A stretch of 64,000 bases of DNA from Candidatus Algichlamydia australiensis (GTDB lineage: Bacteria > Chlamydiota > Chlamydiia > Chlamydiales > JAJFMI01), in the NCBI GenBank assembly GCA_033977065.1, contig JAXCHI010000001.1, positions 2,337 through 66,336 of the forward strand, given 5' to 3'. This document shows, in pieces, positions 36,697 through 52,399 of this stretch. The notes under the pieces are model-generated. The model was not told the DNA's origin and did no database searches. It worked only from the letters and a program-made list of their open reading frames with translations. Made by a program: the position numbers and the translations under genes. Position 1 is the stretch's first letter; every line of letters begins with the position of its first letter.

Positions 36697-37401
36697 ATGG
36701 AATCAAGTAGACCATCTTTTGGGATTATGAGTGGGGTAGCCACTTTTTTAGGGCTTTCTCCGCATCTTCTGGTATTATCAGCGCTTTTGGTTTTTAGACC
36801 CCCATCTGCGACAACAGGATCAATTGTGATGTTTACAGTTGGGGCAAAGCTTCTTGTTGAATGCGTCTTTTATCAATTTTTCTCTAATCAAATGAAGAGT
36901 CAAAAAATAATGAAAGGTTGGGAGGAAGTCGTTTCAGTACCTTTACTATCTCACCCAAATGTCTCACTCTCTATCTTTTTTTATTTTATCGATCATGTAT
37001 GCGACATACTAATCCTATACAAAGCATTACAAACGCCATTTTATCCTCCACTTATTTTCTTTGTATTCCTTGGTTGCCAAGCAGCAGCTTCATATGTTCA
37101 GGGTCGGATCTCCGATCTAGTTAGTTTAAAAAAATCACTTTTATTTGCTCTTAGCGCAGCGTTTCTTGCTCTACTGGGGATAGAATTTGTCGGGATGATT
37201 TCGCCGAACTCAAATTCTTTTAGTATATCGACATTACCAAGCAATTTTGCTGGCCTAAATCTATTAGAACCATCTACTCAAATTTTGATTCTGATGGTAG
37301 GGAAAGGTCTTTTTGGAAATATCTCAACATTGTCTAGATCAGCAATTGCTTCAGTAGTTTTTGCAGAAGCCATGAGAAAATTCAGTAAAAAAGGCGTTTA
37401 A
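36697..37401 (+). CDS. Half-size MFS-like membrane protein
   Basis: Motif-A-like QGRISDLVSLKKSLL and KGLFGN.S.LSRSAIA; 234 aa. Confidence 0.55.
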   Translation: MESSRPSFGIMSGVATFLGLSPHLLVLSALLVFRPPSATTGSIVMFTVGAKLLVECVFYQFFSNQMKSQKIMKGWEEVVSVPLLSHPNVSLSIFFYFIDHVCDILILYKALQTPFYPPLIFFVFLGCQAAASYVQGRISDLVSLKKSLLFALSAAFLALLGIEFVGMISPNSNSFSISTLPSNFAGLNLLEPSTQILILMVGKGLFGNISTLSRSAIASVVFAEAMRKFSKKGV

Positions 37402-37407
37402 GAATTT

Positions 37408-37962
37408 ATGAGCTTAAAAAAAGTAATCATTCACATCTACGCTATTTTCTCTCAGTGGCTGAGTAGGGGAATATTAGGCTTCATCTGTTTCCAAGATGAC
37501 TCAACAAGGGTTTTAGCATTGTTATTCGCTCTTACTTGGGGGATCGGAAGCATAGTTCAAGGAAAGCTTTCAGATGAGAAAAGTTCTAGGAAGAAGATTA
37601 TTTTGATCACGCAATGTTCTCTTGTAGCTTCATGCATCCTTGCGTATTTTGGAATAGTGAGGGGAAGCAATGAGATTCCAATAGTAATCTTAGCTACGAG
37701 CCTTGTTCTAAACGGGGCTTTTGGAAACAGCTCTCCAGCTCTAACAGCTCATATAATGGATTGTGGAGTTGATCAGAAAAAAGCAATTTCTTGGTTACTG
37801 GTCACCAGGCAGTTTGGGTTAGTTGTTGGGATTTTGGTTGGACTACTATCTGCAAAATTAGCATTAGGTATGACTGTTTTAGCGAACTGTTCATCTCTAT
37901 TCCTTATGCATAAGTTGTTTGCTACAGAAGCGCTTACTTCAAACCAAAATATAGAGAGCTAA
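37408..37962 (+). CDS. Half-size MFS-like membrane protein
   Basis: Motif-A-like QGKLSDEKSSRKKII and NGAFGNSSPALTAHIMD; 184 aa. Confidence 0.6.
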   Translation: MSLKKVIIHIYAIFSQWLSRGILGFICFQDDSTRVLALLFALTWGIGSIVQGKLSDEKSSRKKIILITQCSLVASCILAYFGIVRGSNEIPIVILATSLVLNGAFGNSSPALTAHIMDCGVDQKKAISWLLVTRQFGLVVGILVGLLSAKLALGMTVLANCSSLFLMHKLFATEALTSNQNIES

Positions 37963-39063: not shown

Positions 39064-41085
39064 TTGAAATACTTTGGAAAAATCAAAATAGGGAACTTGA
39101 TTGAATACCTGAAAATTCATCGAATTTCTGTAAGCTCAAGTTTAAGAGTAGAAGGAATAAAAGATACTCTGTTTGCGTGGTTTCTCAATGCTGTTTCTAT
39201 AGTATATTTTCAAAGCTCAAGTGAGTCAATTCCATACTCTGTAAATTTTGCAACACAATTTTTTTTCGCAACTGTGGTTATTTTGCTTATTTCTTTTTTC
39301 AGAAGCATATTCAAGTTCGGAAATCTGAGTGAAGTTTTGAAATTTTTGAAAATCAATCAAAAAAGCGAATTTATCAATGAAAAAGGGCACTTGCCACCTG
39401 AATCAAGAAAAAAATTAATAGTAACAAGAGCATTATTTGCCACTGTTGGCTACATTGCATACAGTCTTGCTAGAGTTCTCATTGGAGAAGTTGATAATTC
39501 CTCAATATACAGCGCCGATGCATTAGTTTATGCTGTCATGGCTACATGGATATTGAAAGAAAAATACTCGAAGCAAGAATGGCTTGGAATAGTAGTTGCC
39601 TCTATGGGTGTGCTGTCAGTAATATTCTATGATTTTATTTTTAACAATTGGAGTTTGGCTCTTTCCGGTTCTGTATTTGGGGTTTTCTCCTCATTATCTT
39701 TCGTTATTATATTTTTCTTGACCTCTATTATTATTCAGCATGATCCGCCATTGAGGATTTCATTTTATCAGTGTCTTATAGGTTTTTTTGTTTCGTTGCC
39801 TCTATTGCTCTACTCTTTAGTATTTGGGGATTTTTCAGGAATATCGAATTTGTGGGCAACTGGCCTTTTTCAGGCTGTTATCAATGGTGCCCTATATGGT
39901 ATTTCATTGATTTTCTTTTTTCGTGCATTTCTCTTCACGGAGCCGATCATAATTGCTGTTCTAGGACTATCCCTTTTTCCTTTTGTAAGTTTTCTTAGCT
40001 GGTTCTCTCAGAATCAAATTCCATCTAGTTTAGATTTTTTAAGCGCAGGATTAATCACTATTGGAGGAGTGATTTTAATTAGAGGAGAGTATAAAAGAGA
40101 TAAGCAGTCACAGAATCTATATTCTGCTCCATCTTATCGGGGAAATATAAAAGATCACTTCAAACAATTAAAAATAGAATATAACGAAGGGAAGATTGAC
40201 AAATGGGATTACATGTCAGAAAGACACGAGTTTAATAAGTTATTATTTGAATTTTCTGAAGAGTTAATTAAAACAGACATCAATGAAATTACAATAGATA
40301 GAAAAGGCGTTTTCTTTAGGTTTGATCCATTGAATATTGTACTCCAAAGTGATGGAGGATGTGGTACTCCTCCTTTGACGGTCTTAAATTTTGGGGAGTA
40401 CGAAAGAGAAGAATCGTACTGGATATATGAGTTAGTAACAGATGGAGATGTTATATTAGATTTAGGTGCCAACGTGGGGTGGTATAGTATTAACCTTTCT
40501 AAAAGATTTCCTAATTCAAAAATACTAGCTTTTGAGCCAATAGATGAAACATATGATTATTTATTAAAGAATATTTCACTCAATAAAATTGCTAACGTAA
40601 AGACTTTTAATTTTGGCCTATCAGATCAGGAAAAAATAGAATCGTTCTTTTATTTTAGGGGTGGTTCAGCAATTTCTTCGATAAAGAATTTAATAGATCA
40701 TGCTGGATCAAGAAAGAAGAATTGTATAGTAAAAAAACTTGATGATGTCATTCAAAATGAAGAGCTAGATGAGGTTTCGTTCGTTAAGATGGATATAGAA
40801 GGAGCTGAACTATTGGCCTTAAAAGGTTCATTGTCAACTATAAATAAATATTATCCAATTATTTTCGCTGAATTGTATCAAGTGTGGTGTAGAAAATTTT
40901 TATATGACGCTAATGATGTGCTTAAAATTTTAAAAAGTTATGGCTATCAATGCTTCAATATAGTAGAAAAGAAGCTAGTTAAGACAAACAAAATTCCGTT
41001 TGAAAATGAGAATTATTATAATTATATTTTTCTACATGAAAAGAACCACTTAGATAAAATTAAAAAATATATTGGAGAATCATAG
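39064..41085 (+). CDS. EamA/DMT transporter fused to FkbM-family methyltransferase
   Basis: About 10 TMs with EamA-like ILKEKYS...W.GIVVASMGV; C-terminal ILDLGANVGWYS...AFEP...FVKMDIEGAEL.AL.G. The start is uncertain. Confidence 0.85.
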   Translation: MKYFGKIKIGNLIEYLKIHRISVSSSLRVEGIKDTLFAWFLNAVSIVYFQSSSESIPYSVNFATQFFFATVVILLISFFRSIFKFGNLSEVLKFLKINQKSEFINEKGHLPPESRKKLIVTRALFATVGYIAYSLARVLIGEVDNSSIYSADALVYAVMATWILKEKYSKQEWLGIVVASMGVLSVIFYDFIFNNWSLALSGSVFGVFSSLSFVIIFFLTSIIIQHDPPLRISFYQCLIGFFVSLPLLLYSLVFGDFSGISNLWATGLFQAVINGALYGISLIFFFRAFLFTEPIIIAVLGLSLFPFVSFLSWFSQNQIPSSLDFLSAGLITIGGVILIRGEYKRDKQSQNLYSAPSYRGNIKDHFKQLKIEYNEGKIDKWDYMSERHEFNKLLFEFSEELIKTDINEITIDRKGVFFRFDPLNIVLQSDGGCGTPPLTVLNFGEYEREESYWIYELVTDGDVILDLGANVGWYSINLSKRFPNSKILAFEPIDETYDYLLKNISLNKIANVKTFNFGLSDQEKIESFFYFRGGSAISSIKNLIDHAGSRKKNCIVKKLDDVIQNEELDEVSFVKMDIEGAELLALKGSLSTINKYYPIIFAELYQVWCRKFLYDANDVLKILKSYGYQCFNIVEKKLVKTNKIPFENENYYNYIFLHEKNHLDKIKKYIGES

Positions 41086-41690
41086 TGGACGATATCGAAA
41101 GAATATATGAGTTTATAAAAACTTCAGAAAAACTCAAAAGCGAAATGCGACATAGTTGGGTCTCATGTGGTAGAAATGAGAGTGTTGCTGAACATAGTTG
41201 GCGTACAAGCCTCATGGTAATGTTAATCTCTCCTTTTTTAAAAAACAAAATAAATACTGAAAGAGCTCTAAGATTGGCAATTATTCATGATATTGTTGAA
41301 ATGATAACAGGTGATACGCCATATCACCAATTCGATTCATCAAATTATGGTAGACAACAAATAAAACAATCAGAATTGGAAGGTGCTAAAAAAATAAAAA
41401 GTGTATTGCCAAATTTGGTTGGCAAAGAAATATTTGACCTTTGGTTTGAATTCGAAAATTTATCTAGTGAAGAAGCAAAATTTGTTAATGCTTTAGATAA
41501 ACTTGAAGTCTGCATACAGCATGCACAGTCGGACTGCAGCACCTGGCTTGAGTCTGAAAGAGAAAGCATTTCACCTTTTATAAATTATTTGAAGGGTAAT
41601 TGTGATTCTGAATTGATCCTGAAAACATTAGAAAAATTAGTAATCAGTGATTTGAAAACAAAGCACGCTTCGGAAATAAAATTTAAATAG
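41085..41690 (+). CDS. HD-domain phosphohydrolase (YfbR/HD_3-like)
   Basis: ESVAEHSWR, AIIHDIVEMITGD, EAKFV.ALDKLE; TAGTG overlap with the upstream gene. Confidence 0.9.
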   Translation: MDDIERIYEFIKTSEKLKSEMRHSWVSCGRNESVAEHSWRTSLMVMLISPFLKNKINTERALRLAIIHDIVEMITGDTPYHQFDSSNYGRQQIKQSELEGAKKIKSVLPNLVGKEIFDLWFEFENLSSEEAKFVNALDKLEVCIQHAQSDCSTWLESERESISPFINYLKGNCDSELILKTLEKLVISDLKTKHASEIKFK

Positions 41691-42357
41691 TTCCAAGGTT
41701 ATTTTTAAGCAGATACAATCTGTTATCAAATTCTGACTCGTTATTTATTATTTTCCACAGTTTCCAATTATAAAGGTATGAATCGAATAGATGTTCAAGT
41801 AATTCGTAATTCCCTTTATTCGAAAACGCAATAATTATCTCAGTTTCTTTATGAGAATAATACTTTGCCTGGGCAAGAAATTTACGCACACTTTTAAAAG
41901 AGGGGTCGTAAAAGGCATAGGCTAGAGGGACTTCAATTTCAACCATATCATCGTGGAATGGAATATTAAAAACAATGACATCAAACAATTGCTTCGGAAC
42001 ACTGTCAAAACAATTACTGCGTAGCACTTCCCCATCAAGGCCATGAGTTTGTAAATTAGCCTCGGCATTTTTCACTGCAATTCTATTTATATCTACGAAC
42101 GTTGCTGACAGAGCCTTATTGAGCAAACTATGAATTCCAACAACTCCAATCCCACAACCCATATCACAAACCGCCTTACCCTTTAAGGGCGGAAGAGAAG
42201 TAAGTAGAAAGTCAGTGGTTCGAAACCTTTCGCTTGGATAAACACCGGGGAACACTTGAAATTCTAACTCTAAAATTTTTACTTTTCGTATGTTTTCGCA
42301 TTTTAAAATATCATCTACTATCCCGTGTGGATCCAACTTGAAATACGGAATTGCCAT
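41683..42357 (-). CDS. Class I SAM-dependent methyltransferase (HemK/MTS-like)
   Basis: VFPGVYP, CDMGCGIG, VDIN..AV, FDVIVFNIPF. Confidence 0.88.
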   Translation of the reverse strand: MAIPYFKLDPHGIVDDILKCENIRKVKILELEFQVFPGVYPSERFRTTDFLLTSLPPLKGKAVCDMGCGIGVVGIHSLLNKALSATFVDINRIAVKNAEANLQTHGLDGEVLRSNCFDSVPKQLFDVIVFNIPFHDDMVEIEVPLAYAFYDPSFKSVRKFLAQAKYYSHKETEIIIAFSNKGNYELLEHLFDSYLYNWKLWKIINNESEFDNRLYLLKNNLGTI

Positions 42358-42592
42358 TTTTCACCCCCAAAATTATGCCTTACTGCATTAAATTACCACG
42401 ATTTTACCAGCATCTAACATTAAAGAAAACATTAAAAATGACATGAAAAATTAGCATTTTAATAGTATTTTAAAAAATACTCATACGAATATTTAATCTT
42501 CTTATTTCTATTTTGTTACAACCGTTATTGTTTTATTTTGAAATATGTTCTTTTCTAAATAAATAGTTTATGATATCATGGACCCATAAAAT

Positions 42593-44089
42593 ATGGGAAG
42601 CGAACAAATGAGTGGTGAAAATAGGTCTTTATTAACAACTGCAGAGACAGATTCAAATATTTTAAACTATTTCGTAAATAGTACGATAAATAACTCTAAT
42701 CCAATTGAATCAAGACAAAAAAAAATTACAAGAGTTGCAGCTCAAATTGGGGCTTCAACATTTTTGGCTCTTTCTAGCATACCGTTTATTAGGCCATCCT
42801 TAGAATTTGCAGGAGACGCAACACCGCTAAATATAGCTTTAGGGTGGTACTTAGTGGGTTGTAATCTGACTTCTTTTGGAATTTTAGATGCGTATAGCAT
42901 ATCCAATATGATTGGTGAATATATCCGTCCTTTATCTTCTGATGAAGTAGAAATGTTTTCTGTATCAACAAACAGACGCGTTGATCTTCTATTGAGAATA
43001 GGCTCTGTTAGTACAGCATGCATTCTTAGCATACCCAGAGCATATGTTGGTTATGAATATAATAATGATAGCGCTCTTTTTGCTATTTTAGCAGCATCAG
43101 GTTCTATACCAATCCCTTCATATTCTACTTACCTCACTCTAAACCATATTAAAAGCAATGCTTTTTTAACTGGTGTTGAATCTAGATTACAGGAATCTAA
43201 AGCTGAAGTTATTAATCAGATAAACTCGTTTTGTGCTTCTTTGCCTTTGCAAACGGAAGAGGAATTAAAAGAAGTACTTAGTGAGTTCAATGCTTTGCAA
43301 CAGGTGGAAAGTACTAGTCAAAAAGTATCAAGGCTTTTTCAAATATTACAAAACAATACTCAATCTTCTAAAGATTATTCAAATGAAAAATTAATAAAAC
43401 TAGGTAAATATAGTGTTAAGGTAGTGTCATGTGGATTATCTCTTTCAGTAATTGGTTATTTAGGGGTTGTTAGTTACAATTTTGTTGAATCAATATCAGA
43501 TAGTACAATTTGTGGTGTTGCCAGTGGAACCATAGTTTCTGCTTGCAGTAGTTATTTAACAACTAAGTTATTATTGAACGCATCTACATCTTATTATTCT
43601 TCAGCCGTAAATTTGTTTCGTTGTAGTACAAAAAAAACATGGGGTCTAAGGAACAATAAAAAAATTACTATTGCTAGTAAACTGATTGCGAGTATTATAA
43701 ATGCTTTTGCTTTTGCTCCAACTCTTCAAGTAATTAGTGATAATTTTTCGGGTTTTTCTCGAACTTACATGTACTCTACAGTACCTTTATCTTTTTATAT
43801 AATTTGTTCGCACCTAAGTTTGATGTTAGTTGATGAAGCTATGGAGCAATACTCATACCACATGAATACAGATGCTATAAGTGAAATTATAAATTTTAAG
43901 AAAAGACTTGTCAAATTTGCTAATGTGGTAGACAAATCTCCTCTTATTGAATATGCTAAATTTATCAAAATTTTATCAGAAAATGAGATGTCTGAACTAG
44001 GTAATAGAATATTATTAACTCAAGGTGCTTTGGATTACTACTTGTCTAAAAAAACTGAGACCTTTGCTTTAGCAGATAGCGATGTCTGA
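42593..44089 (+). CDS. Multi-pass membrane hypothetical protein (effector-like)
   Basis: 498 aa with two hydrophobic blocks separated by a helical linker. Confidence 0.7.
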   Translation: MGSEQMSGENRSLLTTAETDSNILNYFVNSTINNSNPIESRQKKITRVAAQIGASTFLALSSIPFIRPSLEFAGDATPLNIALGWYLVGCNLTSFGILDAYSISNMIGEYIRPLSSDEVEMFSVSTNRRVDLLLRIGSVSTACILSIPRAYVGYEYNNDSALFAILAASGSIPIPSYSTYLTLNHIKSNAFLTGVESRLQESKAEVINQINSFCASLPLQTEEELKEVLSEFNALQQVESTSQKVSRLFQILQNNTQSSKDYSNEKLIKLGKYSVKVVSCGLSLSVIGYLGVVSYNFVESISDSTICGVASGTIVSACSSYLTTKLLLNASTSYYSSAVNLFRCSTKKTWGLRNNKKITIASKLIASIINAFAFAPTLQVISDNFSGFSRTYMYSTVPLSFYIICSHLSLMLVDEAMEQYSYHMNTDAISEIINFKKRLVKFANVVDKSPLIEYAKFIKILSENEMSELGNRILLTQGALDYYLSKKTETFALADSDV

Positions 44090-44215: not shown

Positions 44216-44518
44216 TTAACTGTACCGGCTAGAAAATGCATCAAGTACAGACTCAACCTGAAGACCAAACTCATTTGGTTCGTCATGTGCATCAATGCCT
44301 TTGCTAGTAAATAAATTCATCAATTCGTCAATAATTAGGTCAGCTTGTTGCTCCGTAAGGGTTACATTGTAAATAGATTTGCTTCCATTATAAACATGAT
44401 TAGAAAATAAGTTGTTGATTTTTTTTCTAACCGCTTCGTTTTCAACATTCTCTATGAGAAAAATTAGCTCTGTTCTAGTTAGCTTATATTTTTTTTCGTC
44501 CATAGCAAGCACCTTCAC
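44216..44518 (-). CDS. Probable immunity protein for the RHS toxin
   Basis: GTGA overlap with the RHS stop; acidic; G.D..DEPN..G..VE..LD.F motif. Confidence 0.75.
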   Translation of the reverse strand: MKVLAMDEKKYKLTRTELIFLIENVENEAVRKKINNLFSNHVYNGSKSIYNVTLTEQQADLIIDELMNLFTSKGIDAHDEPNEFGLQVESVLDAFSSRYS

Positions 44519-47500
44519 TTGTTTATAAGAGTTTCTCTAGTTTGAACAACTCCACTTCGATTCCAAACCTGTACACCTCTGGCTTTTCCAAAAGCTGTAA
44601 TAATTTTTCCTTCAGAGTTGAGTACTACAGTAGCTTCTTTTCCGACGTATCTTACTGCTTTATCACTTTGGAATACAATTTTTTTTGGAAATTGTACAGC
44701 ATCTAAAATTGCTTTTGCATTAACTCCTCTTCCCCCATCTCTACCTATAGCTTGATTTAATCCATGTTTTTTATAACCTGTAATTTTGTTAGAAATACAA
44801 CTCTTTTCATGAATATAGATCGAAGGTGTTTGTCCAATAGGTGATCTTGCGTATGTTGCGGCCATGACCGGAACTGATCGAGATCCAGCTAGGAGAACTT
44901 GAGTCCCTCCTGCAGTAAAGGCTACTGTAGTCAGGTCGTCTATGAATGCTGCTGCGTTGGGGTCAATTCCTGACATCTCCATGAGCTGACAACTTCCAGT
45001 TCTCATTCTCTGATTATATGCTATTGTCGAGATGCCAGAAAATGCTTGATCTAGTCCATGCATTAATATGGGCCATCCTACAACTGATCCAGCACCCAAA
45101 GTTTTTAGGATAATTGATCCACCTATCCAAGCTTCGAAACAACCACTTGCAAATTTCATGCTCCCTTGAACAAAAGGGCTTCCTATAGCGTTACCTACTT
45201 TCTGAGCAAAAGTGAGGTTGGAATTTGCATGAAACCAGTCTTCTTTTTTTCCAATTGGAGGCAAGGGGGAGAAGTAATTGAAATGTGGAGAATAGGTGTT
45301 GAGATATACGAGTGCTTCTGAAGTTTGTGCAGTGCTGCGAATTTTGTCTTCGAGGCCATAGAAGTCAAAGTGAGTCAAAGGATTATTGTTAAGGTAGGCG
45401 TAGAGATTGGGGCCTTCGGTGTAGCTTTTGGGATCGGGTGTAAGAAAGCGACCGAGGGTGGGTGAGTAGTAACGACGGCCAAAGTAGACGAGGTTGTGGT
45501 CGGTGCGTTTCGATTGGTAGCGCCAGGGGTTGTGGGTCGTTGTGGTTTGTTCTTCACCAAAGGCAGTGAAATAATAGCTTTCTAAAGGTTGCTTAGTGTG
45601 GATGTCAATAAGGGTTGTAATGTCACCTGTGAGGCTGTGGAGGGGGAGGTAGGTTTGGTGATTAAGTTCGATGAGGATGGAGGCGCCGATTTCGGCGCCG
45701 TGACCTAGGCCTAGGATGCGGAGCTGGGTTATGGTGCCGTTTTCTACAAGGCCAATTTCATTATCTCCATCGTAGATGTAGTATTGTGGGGGGTGTTCTA
45801 TCCATTCGTTGTTTTGTTTGTGGGAGGTTTGTTGGGAGGTGCGACGGTGCCACGGGTCGTAGGTATAGGTTGTTTTTGTTATTGGGGTTTTGATTTGGAT
45901 GAGACGATCTAAGGCATCGTATTTATACTTAATATTAGTTGAATTGGTTTCTGCACTTGTGGGGTTTCCGTTTGGATCGTATTCAAAGTTAAAGTCATCG
46001 GTAGTTGAGATTTGGTTTAAAGATGTAATTTCATACGAGTCGTCATTTTTTGAGAGGCGGTTGTGGAGGGAGTCATAGGTGTATTGGTCTTTGTTTTCTT
46101 GTGTGAGTTGATTGAGGTCGTTGTAGGTGTAGGTAGTGGTTTGGTTGTCTAGGATGCGGCTAGTGAGGTTACCGGCTTTATCAAAGCTTTTATGGGCTTC
46201 TTTTTGGTAGGGGCTTTTGCGCTTTATTTCACAATTTAAGAGGTCATAGGTATGGGTTTGGGTTCCAAGGTTTGCAATGAGGGTTTCGGTTTGGGGTGTG
46301 TGGTGTTCATTGTATTGGGTGTAGGTGTGGGTGTAGCTATTGAAGGTGATGGAGGTGAGGTGGTAGGGATCATAGGTGTAGGTAGCAGTCCGGTTATCAG
46401 GGAAAGTTAAGGTTTTACGGCGATTATCAGCCGAATAAGATGAGGTTAAGGTAAGCCCGTTATTAAGTGTTTCTGTCAGGAGGTTGTCATAGGAGTCGTA
46501 GGTACGGGTTGTTGTTGTGTTGTGGGTGTGGTCGTTAGCTTTGATGCAACGATCAAGGTTGTCATAGGTAAAGGTATAGTGAAGGTTTGGAGCAGTAGTA
46601 TCTATGTGGCGACCTTTTTCATCGTAGGTTTTTTCGATGAGGGTACCGTCAGGTTTTGTTATGGTTTGTTCTTGTCCATCGGGTGTGTAGGTGTAAATGG
46701 TTGTTTTTTCTCCAGACTCTGTTTGGGATGTGAGTCTGTTCATTTTGTCATAGGTATAAGCGAGGGTAGTTGTGCGGGCGGGACCGTTGGGATCGAAGAT
46801 GGTGATGGTGTGTGTGAGGAGGTTGCCTGAGGAATCTCTTTCGTAGTGTTCTTTGTGGAGGGGGGTGCCTGTTTTGGAAAGGTGTGTTGTTGCAAGGAGC
46901 TGGCCGTGGCTGTTGTAGGTCTGTTCTAGTTGGCGGTTTTCTGGGTCTAGGGTGGTTTTAGTGAGTTGGTTGTAGGTGATGGTTGTGGTGTGGCCAAGAG
47001 GATTAGTGTGTGAGGTTAGGCGGTTTAAAGGGTCGTATTCGTAGATGTCTGTAGAGTCGCCTTTTGTGATGGTGTTGGCGTTGCCATGAGCATCGTAGGT
47101 GTAGGTAGTTTCGCTGTAAATGGTGGGGTTTTCAGCTAAATCTATCTCGCTCTCTGCAAGGATTTGGTTTTGGGAGTCGTAGGTGTAGAGGGTGCGCTGT
47201 TCGTTTTGGGTTTTTGTTTCGATTCGAGAGAGGGTGTCATAGGTGTAGGTGGTGGTTTGATCAAGAAAGGTCTCTTGGGTGAGGCGGCCGGCTGGGTCGT
47301 AGGTGTAGGTAGTGAGGCGGTTTCCTTGGTCGAGGTGGCTGAGTTTATGAAAGCTGTTGTAAGTGGTGCTCTCTTCTGAAAGGAGTTTATTTGTGGACGA
47401 AAGGAGTTTTTTGGTTAGGGGGCGGTTTGCGTAATCGTAGGTGGTGTAGATTTGACGTGAACATTTATCTACCTGTTTGATCAAGTTTCCGGCGGGATCG

Positions 47501-49722
47501 TAGGTAAAGGTTTCAGTTGTTTGATCGGGATAGGTTGTTTGGATGATTTGGTTGCGAACGTTGTAGTGATGGGTTGTGCGGTTTCCTCTTGGATCGATGA
47601 TTTCAATTGGGTTATTTAAGCTATCGTAGGTGGTTTTTGTGGTGGCGATTTCGTTGCTTTCTAGTGTGAGGTTGCTGCGTGTGTCGTATTGGTATTGAGT
47701 CGTGAGGCCGTAGGGGTCTGTTGTTGTGATTCGTTGGCCTAATGGATTGTAGGTATGCTGGGTTGTATGGGAGATGTTTGGGGCCCCGGTTTGTGTTTCA
47801 GTGAGAAGGTTGCTTTCTTGATCGTAGGTGTATTGGGTGGTGAGGTTTTTGGCGGGCTCGCTTTTGGTTATGCACTGATCAAGGGTGCTGTAGGTGTAGC
47901 TGGTCATTTCGCCAAGTGGATTGGTTTCTTGGATGAGGTTGCCGTGGAGGTCGTAGGTATAGGTTAGGGTATAGCAGAGGGTGTTATTCGCGTCGAATAT
48001 CTCTTTGGTTTCAACTTTGCATTGCTGGTTATAGGTGAGTTGGGTTGTTTTTAGGGTCTTCTCTTTAGAGGATTTGGGGTCCCAGTAGCTCTCTCGGATT
48101 TTGATGGGCAGGTGTGTGGCGGGGCCTTCTTGGGCGAGTTCGTAGCGTGTGATGGTGCGTTCTGTAACGCTTTCTAAGTCCGTGGGATCTTCGCTGTTGC
48201 CATCATCGAGAATTTTTTCATTTAGGTTGTTGTATTCATCGTATGAAAAGAATTCACGAGTAACGATTTGTCCTTCGTTTGAGGTAAGTTTTGATGTGGG
48301 AAGGTTTGTCTTTTTATAATAAGTAATTTTTGTGGTTTTTCCAGAGGGTTCTTGGATGAGGATGGGGAAATTTTCGTAGTTGTATTCGTAGGTTGTGGTA
48401 GTAGAGGGACCGCTAATTGGGAGTTCGTTTTTATCTAATTCGATAGGCGATGGGTCGTTTCCAGATAGGTTGCCCCAGAGGGTTTCTGTGGAGATGTTGT
48501 GGTGGTGGTCGTAGGTGTATGTGATGGCTTTGATACAGTTGCCATTAGGATCGAATGTGAGGATAGCAAGGAGGTTACCGAGTACTGTGTTGCGCGTTCC
48601 GTAAATGTAGCGCGTTTCGCTAGCATCGGGATGGACAATTTTGTAGGGGCGGTTATTACCTCTTGGCTGGTAGGAGGTTGTGTTACCCAAACAGTCAGTT
48701 ACAAGGGTTTGCTTGGGATTTTTCCCTGCTTTTTGCTTGTATTTGAATGTGTAGATGGGGGCGCTTGATGCTGATGTGTAGAGCTCTTGCACTTTGTCAA
48801 ATGCAAGTTTTGCGTGTGTAAGCGGTCCCTGATTGGTCAGCTGTCTTGTAATGCTGTGTGGGGTTGTGATGGCGATCTCTTCAGGAGTGTGTTCTGAGAC
48901 AGCTCTGGTGAGTGTTCCGTTATTAAAGTAGTAGGTAATGCTCTGCCCATTGCTCGTTTCTATGGTTTTGATACCTGGTCTGTTACTGATCGTAATCCAG
49001 CCATATTCGATTTTTTTATTTTCTTTATCGTTAGTGCCTGTAATTAAAATTTTTCGTAAATGACTCTTGCTATCATATTCGTAGAAGATTTTATTCCCAT
49101 TAGGAAGTATTTCTTCCTTTAACAAAAAGAGTTTACCAGCAGCGATGCGTTTATTTGGCAGGTCTACTCTTGAAGATCTCTTTTTGCTGATTTTAGTGCA
49201 GTTGTAGATTCTCTTTGTCCCATCTCCAAAGGAAATTTCATAAGATTTTTTCTTTTTGTTGTATTGACCTTTGATGTTTCTAGTATTTGTTTGGCCGCTA
49301 ATCACTCCTCTGTGGGTGTTGACTAGGTGGGCGGTGTGGGTTTTGTAGTCGAGCATATAGGATGACCTATCACTCTCTATGGGTCTGAGTTTGATCGGAA
49401 GTCCTAGCTCATCTTTAAAGTGCAGCTTTTTTTGTCTCACTTTTTTCTTTTGCCTGCCGTCTTTGTTGATGACTCCCACTTTTTGTATCTCTTCAAGTCT
49501 TACATGGGGGAAAAACTTCCAATCTGTTTGGGATGTGTAGATTCGTGTGATGGGATAAGGTTGAGCGCAATTGAGAATCAGATCAGTTTCAACAGCAAAG
49601 TATTCGCCTGTGATCGCGTTAACGCAGCCAGCTACGGTGAAATTGGGATCGTTGTCGAGAGGAGTGTCGACTGTTGAGAAAAGGGTCGTTAGAATTAGGG
49701 CAAAAATAGAGAGTATTTTCAT
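44515..49722 (-). CDS. rhs: RHS/YD-repeat polymorphic toxin with signal peptide and C-terminal colicin E5/DUF4258-like RNase
   Basis: VNAITGEY N-domain, many YxYD repeats, core end PWRYQSKR...GRFLTPDP...NLYAY..NNPL...DFYGL, tip HGLNQAIGR...AILDAV..P...VVLN..GKIIT. Confidence 0.93.
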   Translation of the reverse strand: MKILSIFALILTTLFSTVDTPLDNDPNFTVAGCVNAITGEYFAVETDLILNCAQPYPITRIYTSQTDWKFFPHVRLEEIQKVGVINKDGRQKKKVRQKKLHFKDELGLPIKLRPIESDRSSYMLDYKTHTAHLVNTHRGVISGQTNTRNIKGQYNKKKKSYEISFGDGTKRIYNCTKISKKRSSRVDLPNKRIAAGKLFLLKEEILPNGNKIFYEYDSKSHLRKILITGTNDKENKKIEYGWITISNRPGIKTIETSNGQSITYYFNNGTLTRAVSEHTPEEIAITTPHSITRQLTNQGPLTHAKLAFDKVQELYTSASSAPIYTFKYKQKAGKNPKQTLVTDCLGNTTSYQPRGNNRPYKIVHPDASETRYIYGTRNTVLGNLLAILTFDPNGNCIKAITYTYDHHHNISTETLWGNLSGNDPSPIELDKNELPISGPSTTTTYEYNYENFPILIQEPSGKTTKITYYKKTNLPTSKLTSNEGQIVTREFFSYDEYNNLNEKILDDGNSEDPTDLESVTERTITRYELAQEGPATHLPIKIRESYWDPKSSKEKTLKTTQLTYNQQCKVETKEIFDANNTLCYTLTYTYDLHGNLIQETNPLGEMTSYTYSTLDQCITKSEPAKNLTTQYTYDQESNLLTETQTGAPNISHTTQHTYNPLGQRITTTDPYGLTTQYQYDTRSNLTLESNEIATTKTTYDSLNNPIEIIDPRGNRTTHHYNVRNQIIQTTYPDQTTETFTYDPAGNLIKQVDKCSRQIYTTYDYANRPLTKKLLSSTNKLLSEESTTYNSFHKLSHLDQGNRLTTYTYDPAGRLTQETFLDQTTTYTYDTLSRIETKTQNEQRTLYTYDSQNQILAESEIDLAENPTIYSETTYTYDAHGNANTITKGDSTDIYEYDPLNRLTSHTNPLGHTTTITYNQLTKTTLDPENRQLEQTYNSHGQLLATTHLSKTGTPLHKEHYERDSSGNLLTHTITIFDPNGPARTTTLAYTYDKMNRLTSQTESGEKTTIYTYTPDGQEQTITKPDGTLIEKTYDEKGRHIDTTAPNLHYTFTYDNLDRCIKANDHTHNTTTTRTYDSYDNLLTETLNNGLTLTSSYSADNRRKTLTFPDNRTATYTYDPYHLTSITFNSYTHTYTQYNEHHTPQTETLIANLGTQTHTYDLLNCEIKRKSPYQKEAHKSFDKAGNLTSRILDNQTTTYTYNDLNQLTQENKDQYTYDSLHNRLSKNDDSYEITSLNQISTTDDFNFEYDPNGNPTSAETNSTNIKYKYDALDRLIQIKTPITKTTYTYDPWHRRTSQQTSHKQNNEWIEHPPQYYIYDGDNEIGLVENGTITQLRILGLGHGAEIGASILIELNHQTYLPLHSLTGDITTLIDIHTKQPLESYYFTAFGEEQTTTTHNPWRYQSKRTDHNLVYFGRRYYSPTLGRFLTPDPKSYTEGPNLYAYLNNNPLTHFDFYGLEDKIRSTAQTSEALVYLNTYSPHFNYFSPLPPIGKKEDWFHANSNLTFAQKVGNAIGSPFVQGSMKFASGCFEAWIGGSIILKTLGAGSVVGWPILMHGLDQAFSGISTIAYNQRMRTGSCQLMEMSGIDPNAAAFIDDLTTVAFTAGGTQVLLAGSRSVPVMAATYARSPIGQTPSIYIHEKSCISNKITGYKKHGLNQAIGRDGGRGVNAKAILDAVQFPKKIVFQSDKAVRYVGKEATVVLNSEGKIITAFGKARGVQVWNRSGVVQTRETLINK

Positions 49723-50896: not shown

Positions 50897-52399
50897 CTAT
50901 TGAGCGCTCATTGACTCCTTGCCGCTTGCTTTTTTGAATTCTTTTCCAAGGTTCTTGACAGCCCAAATCCACCCGCATACTACAATTGCTACCATTGGGG
51001 TAAGGAGCATAGTCGCGTTTAAGATATTGCCACCTGCAAAAGTATCAAGCAAGCCTGTTTGGAGCCAAGATGAACCAGATTTTCCAAGGCGAGACCCAAC
51101 CACATCAATAGCTGCTTTTCCTTTGACTTTGGATTCGGAGTCTAGTGGAATAAAGGCCATCTCCTTAGTAGGGTCAAATAGGGAATACTTCATTGTTTTG
51201 CTTGCAATACTTTGGAGTGCTCCGACAGTAACAATAAGGCCTAGGGGGGAAATACCGAGCAAAACAGGTGTCCAACCGAGGTGATCCTTTGCGGTTGCAA
51301 GAAGGAGGAACAGAACTCCTGTTCCTCCAACCACCAGAGGTGTAACCATTGCAGTGATTGTCCAACCAAACTTACGAAGAATGTTTCCACCAGCAAAGAC
51401 AGCCATAATTAGCGGAAAAAATCCGCAGAAGAAGCTGATCTTTCCCATAAATTGCTGGTATTGATTTGAGTCGGGATAGAGCATTTTAGAGCTTGCTTTC
51501 CAGGCAATTTCTGCTAAGCTGATCGCTAAACCATAGCTGATTACCATAATGGCTAAGCACATTAAGTATTTAGAGGATAAGATGAATTTAAAACTCTCTT
51601 TGATAGAGAGGCTAGGCTTTTCCTTTTTTAACTTTTGGCGGCTCTCACTTGAGAGGCATTTTTCGTCTGTTAGGACGTACCGATTCATCCACCAGTAAAT
51701 TCCGGCTATTGCTAATCCTACCAAGATAGCTAGGAAGCAAACTTGTTGGACGGTGTTTACGTAGTCTCCTCCTATGTTTTTTGTGGCAATTTTTGCAACA
51801 AACAAACCACCTAACATGGGTCCAAAGTCTCCCGCTGCTGTAAATAGAGTGTAAAACCTTTTGGCTTGATTCAACGGGGTGATGTAGTTCGCATAGGTCC
51901 AAAAAAGGAGCATGATTACCACCTGGCCCCATAGCTCGGCAACCACAAAAAAGATAGAATTCATCCAGCTATAAATAGGGGCTACCCAGTGAGAATGGCC
52001 TTCACCTAATAGCGCAAAAAGTTTTGCGCATAGCTCGTGAGGAGTGAAAAATTCTTGATTTGGGTAGAGGACGTAGCCAAATAGAAAAAAGAATATTAAA
52101 AATGGTGCAAGGGATGTATATACTAGTTTTTGCAAAGAGAGCTTGTTGCTTAATTTCGTATAAATCAGCAGAACAAGTAGAGCCGATGGAAGGACAACCC
52201 ACCCTTTTAAGATGGCAACAACTTCCGCTCCAGAGTGTTTTCCTGTAATGATCAGAGTGTCTTTCGTTGTTGCTAGGATAACAAAATTTATAGAGACCAA
52301 GAATTTTAAAAGAAATAAGGGAAGGAATTTCTTGAGTTCAGAGCGATGGATAGGCCAAAGGCGAGATCTCCATTTACTAAAAATGAGTTCCTTTTCCAT
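50897..52399 (-). CDS. tlc: ATP/ADP translocase (NTT/TLC family nucleotide transporter)
   Basis: LWPIHRSELKKFLPL, KDTLI, AELWG, KYSLFDPTKEMAFIPLD..K.KGKAAIDVVG.RLGKSG. Confidence 0.96.
   Translation of the reverse strand: MEKELIFSKWRSRLWPIHRSELKKFLPLFLLKFLVSINFVILATTKDTLIITGKHSGAEVVAILKGWVVLPSALLVLLIYTKLSNKLSLQKLVYTSLAPFLIFFFLFGYVLYPNQEFFTPHELCAKLFALLGEGHSHWVAPIYSWMNSIFFVVAELWGQVVIMLLFWTYANYITPLNQAKRFYTLFTAAGDFGPMLGGLFVAKIATKNIGGDYVNTVQQVCFLAILVGLAIAGIYWWMNRYVLTDEKCLSSESRQKLKKEKPSLSIKESFKFILSSKYLMCLAIMVISYGLAISLAEIAWKASSKMLYPDSNQYQQFMGKISFFCGFFPLIMAVFAGGNILRKFGWTITAMVTPLVVGGTGVLFLLLATAKDHLGWTPVLLGISPLGLIVTVGALQSIASKTMKYSLFDPTKEMAFIPLDSESKVKGKAAIDVVGSRLGKSGSSWLQTGLLDTFAGGNILNATMLLTPMVAIVVCGWIWAVKNLGKEFKKASGKESMSAQ

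What the first reader, a model, noticed from the sequence alone, without database searches (positions are those of the whole stretch)
39064..42357. EamA/DMT transporter fused to an FkbM methyltransferase, coupled to an HD hydrolase and a second methyltransferase
Seen: one continuous ORF joins a ~10-TM DMT domain to an FkbM SAM-dependent methyltransferase. It is translationally coupled (TAGTG) to an HD phosphohydrolase, and a convergent NIPF-motif amino-methyltransferase overlaps the HD 3' end. The block is visibly more AT-rich than the tra region. Established: Rickettsia and Chlamydia import host SAM through DMT-family carriers. Inference: this could be a transporter-enzyme unit that channels host SAM to methylation, or a small-molecule (nucleotide-derived?) modify-and-export pathway. 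I do not know this fusion as a described system.
Basis: partly seen in the sequence, partly recalled or inferred. Interest (0 to 1): 0.75.

Follow-up and report, generated by a model that had tools for sequence, protein, structure and literature searches.

The report
Chlamydial transporter–methyltransferase fusion in a mobile cassette
A plasmid of a chlamydia-like bacterium encodes a genuine, conserved membrane transporter fused to a methylating enzyme, part of a previously undescribed mobile gene set that probably modifies and transports a nucleoside- or sugar-nucleotide-like small molecule.

Summary
One 673-aa ORF (39064-41085) joins a 10-helix DMT/EamA permease to a complete FkbM methyltransferase. 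It overlaps the start of an HD_3 phosphohydrolase (TAGTG), whose 3' end overlaps a convergent NIPF-motif MTS methyltransferase. The block has 32% GC, against 42% for the chromosome.

The fusion is not an artefact. Full-length homologues (31-42% identity) occur in 13 of 400 sampled chlamydial genomes from six families. Split forms with separate DMT and methyltransferase genes also exist.

The neighbours co-occur. 17 of 20 MTS orthologues lie within 8 kb of a fusion-family gene. MTS-HD-methyltransferase operons recur.

It sits beside 10 of 13 fusions, and HD sits beside 2. This genome has no copy of it.

The cassette is mobile: it lies on plasmids (including Simkania pSn) or between IS elements.

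The SAM-channelling idea is not supported. The DMT subfamily is sporadic and distinct from the universal chlamydial SAM carrier, although transport was not tested.

Best reading (0.45): a cytoplasmic methylate-and-transport module for a nucleoside- or nucleotide-sugar-type metabolite. The substrate is unknown.

The parts
39064..40119 (+). DMT/EamA permease domain of the fusion (residues 1-352), 10 TM helices, N- and C-termini cytoplasmic
   Evidence: Pfam finds two EamA stretches. The AF2 model has helices 25-349. Foldseek finds the DMT fold: Vrg4 5oge E=1.2e-6 TM 0.70-0.72, TPT, LicB, YddG. Loops predicted inside carry 15 K/R and loops outside carry 0. Family-invariant polar residues are R115, R122, D152, R231, Q236 and nearly invariant D144/N145, E293.
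40120..40371 (+). Linker, which is the native N-terminal helical/beta subdomain of the methyltransferase (residues 353-436)
   Evidence: It is conserved across the 12 fusions (P356, Y358, Y383, N391, L394, F395). It is also present at the N-terminus of more than 100 stand-alone ~310-aa relatives, which match profile positions ~356-665. AF2 gives helices 362-401 and strands 406-428.
40372..41085 (+). FkbM-type SAM-dependent methyltransferase catalytic domain (residues 437-673) and stop codon
   Evidence: PF05050 1.4e-15, TIGR01444 4.9e-26, PF02475 1.2e-8. The motifs LDLGANVGW, AFEP and MDIEGAE are invariant in the family. Foldseek matches FkbM 2py6 at 1.3e-6. PDB sequence hits are 3a27 and 2py6.
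41083..41087 (+). TAGTG stop/start overlap between the fusion and the HD gene
   Evidence: Read directly from the sequence. In homologous loci HD follows the fusion after 9-30 nt (L017, G313).
41085..41690 (+). HD_3 / YfbR-like metal-dependent phosphohydrolase (201 aa)
   Evidence: PF13023 9.5e-42, PF12917 1e-14. The closest solved relatives are human HDDC2 (3.7e-21), the 'oxetanocin-like protein' 1xx7, yeast YGL101W and YfbR. The H...HD...D ligands are present. It is 47% identical to the HD next to the fusion in L017 and 42% to that in L020.
41683..42357 (-). MTS-type (RsmC/GenN-like) amino-group N-methyltransferase, NIPF motif (224 aa)
   Evidence: PF05175 2.8e-21. The closest solved relatives are RsmC 2pjd (1.2e-13, NPPFH aligned to NIPFH), MJ0882, RlmG and the gentamicin N-methyltransferase GenN. 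It is 52% and 47% identical to the MTS genes of L017 and L020. 17 of 20 orthologues in 400 genomes lie within 8 kb of a fusion-family gene.
42593..44089 (+). 498-aa all-helical membrane protein of a chlamydia-only family, a loosely associated neighbour
   Evidence: No Pfam match. Homologues lie beside the cluster in G036 (1e-8), L016 (2e-4) and Simkania pSn (9e-30). The family is in 37/300 genomes and next to cluster genes in about 11. AF2 pTM is 0.71, and there is no PDB fold match at E<=1e-3.

Best explanation
The 673-aa protein is an inner-membrane DMT permease. Its cytoplasmic C-terminus carries a complete, apparently active FkbM-type O-methyltransferase. It works with the translationally coupled HD_3 phosphohydrolase and the adjacent RsmC/GenN-like N-methyltransferase as one accessory module, carried on a conjugative plasmid-like contig.

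In most related loci a divergent SAH-hydrolase-fold NAD enzyme takes the place of HD.

I infer that the module acts on one small polar metabolite that has a nucleoside or nucleotide-sugar character. HD (or, elsewhere, the SAHH-like enzyme) makes or trims the nucleoside/nucleotide part. The MTS enzyme methylates an amino group. The FkbM domain methylates a sugar hydroxyl at the membrane face. The DMT domain moves the substrate or, more likely, the finished product across the inner membrane. The fusion would couple the last enzymatic step to transport.

Shown here: domain identities, topology, conservation of catalytic motifs, synteny, the existence of split forms, and mobility.

Inferred: that the genes share one pathway, the class of substrate, the order of steps and the direction of transport.
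For: The fusion is conserved: 10 full-length proteins at 34-42% identity, about 14 clusters among 1.84 billion representatives, and 13 of 400 chlamydial genomes in 6 families.

Split forms exist with the same partners. L020 reads MTS->HD->MT<-DMT, with 47/42/42/28% identity to the window's proteins. G302 has the same convergent arrangement.

Synteny is strong. 17 of 20 MTS orthologues, 7 of 25 HD-bearing genomes and 31 of 49 SAHH-like-bearing genomes have the gene within 8 kb of other cluster genes. Chance expectation is under 1% per gene.

Beside the 13 fusions, 10 have the SAHH-like gene, 2 have HD, none has both and one has neither.

The methyltransferase domain is cytoplasmic: K/R counts are 15 inside and 0 outside.

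The parts point to nucleoside or nucleotide-sugar chemistry:
- Stand-alone methyltransferase relatives lie beside NDP-sugar epimerase, NTP-transferase and glycosyltransferase genes, and one is fused to an NDP-sugar epimerase/dehydratase.
- HD_3 relatives are NMP phosphohydrolases, including an OxsA-like protein.
- MTS is closest to the guanine-N2 enzyme RsmC and the aminosugar N-methyltransferase GenN.
- The SAHH-like profile hits adenosylhomocysteinases at 5e-13, with DDGG, E-TT-G, the catalytic-type K and the NAD motifs aligned.
- An SAHH homologue acting as a nucleoside-tailoring dehydratase has precedent in AgmF (PMC8599513).
- The DMT fold is closest to nucleotide-sugar transporters.
Against: No substrate, product or transport direction has been shown.

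No scaffold-forming enzyme was found in any locus inspected: no glycosyltransferase, nucleotidyltransferase or ligase.

The composition is mosaic. There are MT+SAHH-like loci without the DMT (for example L021) and DMT+SAHH-like loci without the FkbM gene (Simkania pSn). The fusion partners are therefore not obligatorily coupled.

Foldseek does not separate nucleotide-sugar transporters from amino-acid, choline or phosphate DMTs.

The inter-domain geometry of the AF2 model is unreliable (pTM 0.51).

HD_3 genes also occur alone in many chlamydiae.

One fusion subclade (P0010, G038) has degenerate methyltransferase motifs.
Confidence: 0.45

Rival explanations
1. Private SAM supply. The DMT domain is a SAM/SAH antiporter that imports host SAM directly to the fused methyltransferase and removes SAH.
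For: The genome has no MetK and no canonical SAHH. DMT-family SAM/SAH carriers are proven in Chlamydia and Rickettsia (PMC3104491). The cluster is rich in methyltransferases, and most loci carry an SAH-hydrolase-fold protein.
Against: This DMT subfamily is found in only 6/41 relatives, whereas the SAMHT orthologue is reported in all Chlamydiales. It found nothing in the one small-genome Chlamydia-like relative searched at E<=1e-3, and the profile scan found nothing at E<=1e-25 in the ~18 listed genomes of that genus. It shows no significant similarity to the genome's three other full-length two-EamA DMT genes (best BLASTP E = 0.027), one of which is presumably the general carrier. A general SAM carrier would already serve every methyltransferase. 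DMT+SAHH-like loci exist without the fused methyltransferase.
Confidence: 0.15
2. Envelope glycan modification. The FkbM domain methylates a sugar on a nucleotide- or lipid-linked glycan precursor, and the DMT domain flips or transports that precursor for LPS or another surface glycan.
For: The closest non-chlamydial methyltransferase relatives sit in glycan/NDP-sugar clusters, and one is fused to an NDP-sugar epimerase. There is a weak RfbT-family hit. SDR/epimerase-type genes lie in some loci. K1-lyase_C proteins lie near the pSn cluster. The DMT fold resembles nucleotide-sugar transporters.
Against: No glycosyltransferase, NDP-sugar synthesis, Wzx/Wzy or ligase gene is present in any chlamydial locus inspected. 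The constant partners are SAHH-like, HD and MTS enzymes, which are not glycan-pathway enzymes. The cassette is sporadic, and plasmid- or IS-borne.
Confidence: 0.15
3. Modify-and-expel resistance. The cassette detoxifies an antimicrobial made by the host or a competitor (for example a nucleoside or aminoglycoside-like compound) by methylating it and effluxing it through the DMT.
For: The location is on plasmids or between IS elements, the distribution is patchy, and the GC is low. DMT is a drug/metabolite family. MTS resembles rRNA and aminoglycoside methyltransferases. The window's neighbours are toxin/immunity genes (RHS).
Against: No known resistance family matched. Several distinct enzymes (SAHH-like, HD, SDR, up to three methyltransferases) are more than a detoxification step needs. 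Obligate intracellular bacteria meet few antibiotics.
Confidence: 0.1
4. The fusion is an assembly or frameshift artefact, or the neighbours are adjacent by chance.
For: A 454-era metagenome contig shows overlapping separate DMT and methyltransferase genes (L019). Reads could not be checked.
Against: Uninterrupted ~670-aa ORFs occur in 13 independent genomes and in many metagenomes, with the junction conserved. The synteny statistics are strong.
Confidence: 0.02

Closest known systems
Chlamydia trachomatis SAM/SAH transporter SAMHT (CTL843) and Rickettsia prowazekii Sam (RP076)
   Same: Both are 10-TM DMT/DME carriers with two EamA repeats, in obligate intracellular bacteria that lack SAM synthetase (PMC3104491). 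The host genome here also lacks MetK and SAHH.
   Different: Those carriers are stand-alone and, in chlamydiae, universal. The DMT here is fused to an enzyme and belongs to a sporadic subfamily (6/41 relatives). It found no match in the one small-genome Chlamydia-like relative searched. Its substrate is untested.
FkbM-family sugar O-methyltransferases (PF05050/TIGR01444; e.g. V. cholerae RfbT; structure 2py6)
   Same: The catalytic domain and SAM motifs are shared. ~310-aa relatives (31-41% identity, including the N-terminal subdomain) are widespread in bacteria and archaea within NDP-sugar/glycan clusters.
   Different: Those enzymes are soluble and stand alone, or are fused to NDP-sugar epimerases. 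Only in chlamydiae is this subfamily fused to a permease and linked to SAHH-like, HD and MTS genes.
Nucleotide-sugar transporters (Vrg4 / SLC35) and other solved DMTs (TPT, LicB, YddG)
   Same: They share the fold (TM-score ~0.7 to the target). The fusion family has an invariant F-x-Q-C at the start of predicted TM7; in Vrg4 the FYNN nucleotide-recognition motif lies on TM7 (PMC6789118).
   Different: Identity is only 12-19%. The motif correspondence is positional and was not tested by superposition. The fold alone does not indicate the substrate.
Nucleoside natural-product pathways that use an SAHH homologue (AgmF, angustmycin) or an HD phosphohydrolase (OxsA, oxetanocin)
   Same: The enzyme classes match: an SAHH-fold NAD enzyme acting on a nucleoside rather than SAH (PMC8599513), an HD-type nucleotide phosphohydrolase, methyltransferases and an exporter.
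   Different: No scaffold-building enzymes were found here. Those pathways are in Actinobacteria and Bacillus, not chlamydiae. The exporter here is a DMT fused to an enzyme. The SAHH-like gene is absent from this window.

Membership tests
DMT superfamily, 10-TM two-EamA (DME-type) permease | Two EamA repeats | tested here: met
   Pfam EamA in 2 stretches, 2.3e-11; two hits at C1:41505-41960 and 42000-42413.
DMT superfamily, 10-TM two-EamA (DME-type) permease | Ten TM helices with the DMT fold | tested here: met
   AF2 gives 10 helices between residues 25 and 349. Foldseek matches Vrg4, TPT, LicB and YddG at E 1e-6 to 1e-4 with target TM-score ~0.7.
DMT superfamily, 10-TM two-EamA (DME-type) permease | Transport activity | not testable with these tools
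   Needs uptake or efflux assays.
FkbM methyltransferase family (PF05050 / TIGR01444) | HMM score above the curated cut-off | tested here: met
   58.3 bits against a cut-off of 22.7; 91.9 bits against 37.7.
FkbM methyltransferase family (PF05050 / TIGR01444) | SAM-binding motif I (DxGAxxG) and the D-x-E-G-x-E motif | tested here: met
   LDLGANVGW and MDIEGAE; A469, G472, W473, E491, G580 and E582 are invariant in 12 homologues.
Chlamydial SAM/SAH transporter SAMHT (CTL843 orthologues) | Present in all Chlamydiales genomes | tested here: not met
   The subfamily (fusion DMT plus P0015-like) is found in 6/41 relatives. The profile scan found nothing at E<=1e-25 in the ~18 listed small-genome Chlamydia-like genomes. 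The protein search found no match at E<=1e-3 in the one such genome searched.
Chlamydial SAM/SAH transporter SAMHT (CTL843 orthologues) | 34-38% identity to CTL843 | not tested
   No CTL843 sequence was available in the tools. Only the indirect evidence above applies.
Chlamydial SAM/SAH transporter SAMHT (CTL843 orthologues) | SAM uptake / SAH exchange | not testable with these tools
   Needs metK-depletion rescue and radiolabel assays as in PMC3104491.
HD_3 / YfbR-like nucleoside-5'-monophosphate phosphohydrolases | HMM above cut-off and H..HD..D metal ligands | tested here: met
   PF13023 143 bits. AEHSW, IIHDIVE, GD and ALDKLE are read in the translation. The closest solved relative is HDDC2 at 3.7e-21.
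MTS amino-methyltransferases (RsmC/RlmG/PrmC type) | MTS HMM and motif IV (D/N)PP(F/Y)-like | tested here: met
   PF05175 76 bits. NIPFH aligns to NPPFH of RsmC.
MTS amino-methyltransferases (RsmC/RlmG/PrmC type) | rRNA or protein substrate | not testable with these tools
   All equivalog NCBIfam scores are far below their cut-offs. Tight synteny with the cassette (17/20) argues for a cassette role.
Nucleoside natural-product gene clusters | Scaffold-forming enzyme plus tailoring enzymes and an exporter | tested here: inconclusive
   Tailoring enzymes (2-3 methyltransferases, HD, SDR, SAHH-like) and a transporter are present. No scaffold enzyme was recognised in any locus.

The most novel reading that the evidence does not exclude
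Environmental chlamydiae carry, on plasmids and IS-flanked cassettes, a small-molecule pathway built around an SAH-hydrolase-fold enzyme or an HD phosphohydrolase. It would make a doubly methylated nucleoside or nucleotide-sugar analogue from stolen host precursors and host SAM, and export it through a permease that is physically fused to the last methyltransferase. The product would act on the host cell or on competing microbes. This would be a secondary-metabolite-like capability not known for obligate intracellular chlamydiae.
Probability: 0.25. Interest if true: 0.8.

Novelty: new variant of a known kind. Interest (0 to 1): 0.6.

Why it matters
Chlamydiae are viewed as metabolite thieves with almost no small-molecule biosynthesis of their own. 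This cassette spends imported SAM on two or three methylations and couples one of them physically to a permease. It is conserved and horizontally mobile, and it is present in at least 11% of the chlamydial genomes sampled here and on the plasmid of the culturable Simkania negevensis.

If the product is exported, it would be a new kind of host- or competitor-directed chemistry for this phylum. It would also be a rare natural example of an enzyme-transporter fusion in the DMT superfamily.

The work also defines a large chlamydia-specific SAH-hydrolase-fold family (more than 500 sequence clusters). Some sources annotate it as adenosylhomocysteinase, but it is probably not one. That matters for metabolic reconstructions that score chlamydiae for a methylation cycle.

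Tried and rejected
- NCBIfam gave no family for either DMT.
- Homology search of the stand-alone paralogue P0015 returned only unnamed chlamydial proteins, so it could not be tied to SAMHT by name. Its sporadic distribution then argued against SAMHT.
- The SAHH-like gene was sought in this genome and not found.
- The promoter/terminator scan was not above the shuffled background (33 against 25.4±5.2).
- No flanking IS or long repeats bound the block in this window.
- The window's 498-aa protein is not related to the ~500-aa proteins of L012 or L017.
- An alignment of assorted ~330-aa neighbours showed no common family.
- The 498-aa family was folded (pTM 0.71) but has no PDB fold match.
- The chlamydial plasmid pangenome paper (PMC7846284) has no occurrence of 'methyltransferase', 'EamA' or 'adenosyl' in its main text, and no paper links FkbM with chlamydiae.
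- The AF2 inter-domain orientation (pTM 0.51) was judged too uncertain to argue for substrate channelling.
Full report
**Observation.** The window holds the genes as described.
- ORF 39064-41085(+) encodes 673 aa, with two EamA stretches and an FkbM domain (PF05050 1.4e-15; TIGR01444 4.9e-26).
- Its TAG stop shares a base with the GTG start of a 201-aa HD_3 protein at 41085-41690 (9.5e-42).
- The HD 3' end overlaps by 8 bp the end of a convergent 224-aa MTS methyltransferase at 41683-42357(-) (2.8e-21), which carries NIPFH.
- The block 39064-44089 has 32.3% GC. The tra genes have 42.5% and the large contigs 42.2-42.8%.
- The contig (87 kb, 37.6% GC) carries TraC, TrbI, a MobA/MobL relaxase-helicase, ParA, DnaB, Fic and ankyrin proteins and an ATP/ADP translocase. 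It is therefore a conjugative plasmid-like element.

**The fusion is real.**
- Ten full-length proteins of 673-734 aa share 34-42% identity over at least 98% of the query.
- A profile search of 1.84 billion representatives found about 14 full-length clusters.
- A scan of 400 genomes of the phylum found uninterrupted fusions in 13 genomes from six families. It found none in the small-genome Chlamydia-like genus.
- Named records place the fusions in Rhabdochlamydiaceae, Anoxychlamydiales, Simkaniaceae and unclassified Chlamydiales.
- The 12-sequence alignment runs through the junction without gaps, and residues in the linker are conserved.
- Split forms exist. In L020 the order is MTS, HD, a 312-aa methyltransferase and a convergent 305-aa EamA gene. 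These are 47%, 42%, 42% and 28% identical to the window's proteins, and the DMT shares the DPPLRI(S/T)FY and VDNS motifs. G302 has the same convergent DMT/methyltransferase pair followed by HD.

**Anatomy.**
- AF2 (pLDDT 76) gives ten TM helices (25-349), two helices and a small sheet (362-428), and a Rossmann methyltransferase (437-670).
- Loops on the predicted inside carry 15 K/R and those outside carry none. Both termini and the enzyme are therefore cytoplasmic.
- Foldseek matches DMT structures (Vrg4, TPT, LicB, YddG) and FkbM 2py6.
- The 'linker' is the enzyme's own N-terminal subdomain. More than 100 stand-alone ~310-aa relatives start at profile position ~360.
- The SAM motifs are invariant, except in the P0010/G038 subclade.

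**Neighbours.** I scanned the same 400 genomes with MTS, HD and a profile of a ~400-aa neighbour seen in other loci and merged the coordinates.
- 17 of 20 MTS orthologues (41-55% identity) lie within 8 kb of a fusion-family gene.
- HD is linked in 7 of 25 genomes and otherwise stands alone.
- The ~400-aa protein has only a weak Pfam HcgC hit. Its profile hits adenosylhomocysteinases at 5e-13, with the DDGG, E-TT-G, NV..SK.K and NAD motifs aligned.
- That protein is in 49 genomes and linked to cluster genes in 31. It lies beside 10 of the 13 fusions. HD lies beside 2, neither beside 1, and both beside none.
- It is absent from this genome.
- Further recurrent neighbours are a 498-aa membrane protein family, MT11/CMAS methyltransferases, an O-methyltransferase, SDRs and FKBP.
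- The cassette is IS-flanked in G263. It is plasmid-borne in L016 and on Simkania negevensis pSn, where the order is a 497-aa gene, SAHH-like, SDR and EamA.

**Chemistry suggested by the parts.**
- Non-chlamydial methyltransferase relatives lie next to NDP-sugar epimerases, nucleotidyltransferases and glycosyltransferases. One is fused to an NDP-sugar epimerase/dehydratase.
- MTS is closest to RsmC, MJ0882, RlmG and GenN.
- HD is closest to HDDC2, an oxetanocin-like protein, YGL101W and YfbR.
- An SAHH homologue that does not cleave SAH but tailors a nucleoside is known: AgmF (PMC8599513).
- All five families bind nucleoside, nucleotide or nucleotide-sugar ligands.

**The SAM idea.**
- The genome lacks MetK and SAHH, so it must import SAM. 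DMT SAM/SAH carriers are established (PMC3104491).
- The fusion's DMT is related only to one paralogue, P0015 (E=4.5e-27). It shows no significant similarity to the three other full-length two-EamA DMT genes of the genome (best E = 0.027).
- That subfamily is in only 6 of 41 relatives and found nothing in the one Chlamydia-like genome searched. The SAMHT orthologue is reported in all Chlamydiales.
- It is therefore not the SAMHT orthologue. Whether it can carry SAM is untested.

**Mechanism and rivals.**
- Modify-and-transport module for a nucleoside- or nucleotide-sugar-type metabolite: 0.45.
- Private SAM carrier: 0.15.
- Envelope glycan methylation: 0.15.
- Modify-and-expel resistance: 0.10.
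- Artefact: 0.02.
- The mosaic composition counts against any obligatory coupling. Methyltransferase+SAHH-like loci exist without the DMT and DMT+SAHH-like loci exist without the methyltransferase.

**Novelty.** Both domains are known. The fusion, its restriction to chlamydiae and the cassette were not found in the literature searched.

**What failed.**
- Promoter and repeat scans were uninformative.
- The 498-aa family has no fold match.

Noticed in passing
L024:1270-3282 (G263:C1:651270-653282); also G319:C125, G345:C100, G166:C10, G201:C19, G338:C3: ORFs of ~664-702 aa in six chlamydial genomes contain an MTS-like methyltransferase domain (30-34% identical to the window's MTS). The G263 copy, the only one run through Pfam, joins an N-terminal GTP cyclohydrolase II domain (3.3e-56) to the C-terminal MTS domain. 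It lies 10 kb from the G263 cassette.
   Followed up: partly
window 50897-52399 (-): A TLC-family ATP/ADP (nucleotide) translocase (2.5e-162) is carried on the plasmid-like contig, 7 kb from the cassette.
   Followed up: no
window 42593-44089 (+); paralogue at G000:C3:26051-27517: A chlamydia-only 470-530-aa all-helical membrane protein family, present in 37/300 genomes. The AF2 model is confident (pTM 0.71) but has no PDB fold match. It often lies next to SAHH-like, HD or DMT genes, including on Simkania pSn.
   Followed up: partly
A1 family, e.g. L024:13858-15114, L051:6657-7883 (Simkania pSn): A large chlamydia-specific SAH-hydrolase-fold family (more than 500 sequence clusters). Sources name it 'hypothetical' or 'adenosylhomocysteinase'. 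The residue aligned with the SAHH active-site histidine (His301, numbering from memory) is Ser. A 28.6%-identical homologue sits on five Legionella pneumophila conjugative plasmids.
   Followed up: partly
P0010 / L015:10295-12292 subclade of the fusion: Methyltransferase motif I (DxGAxxG) and the CDVEG motif are degenerate (D-F-S/N-A-Q-V-G; GHAIG/GQATG). The enzyme half may be inactive there, although the fusion is kept.
   Followed up: no
window 44216-49722 (-): A 1735-aa RHS/YD-repeat protein with a small downstream ORF lies directly beside the cassette. RHS proteins also flank the cassette in three other loci (P0009 locus, L012, L021).
   Followed up: no
window 36697-37962 (+): Two tandem half-size ORFs lie upstream of the cassette. 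The second has a sub-threshold MFS_1 hit (1e-5); the first has no Pfam match.
   Followed up: no
G132, G305, G395:C135, G260: Stand-alone P0015-like DMT genes sit next to MTS paralogues (26-33% identity) in four genomes. This is a second DMT-methyltransferase pairing.
   Followed up: no
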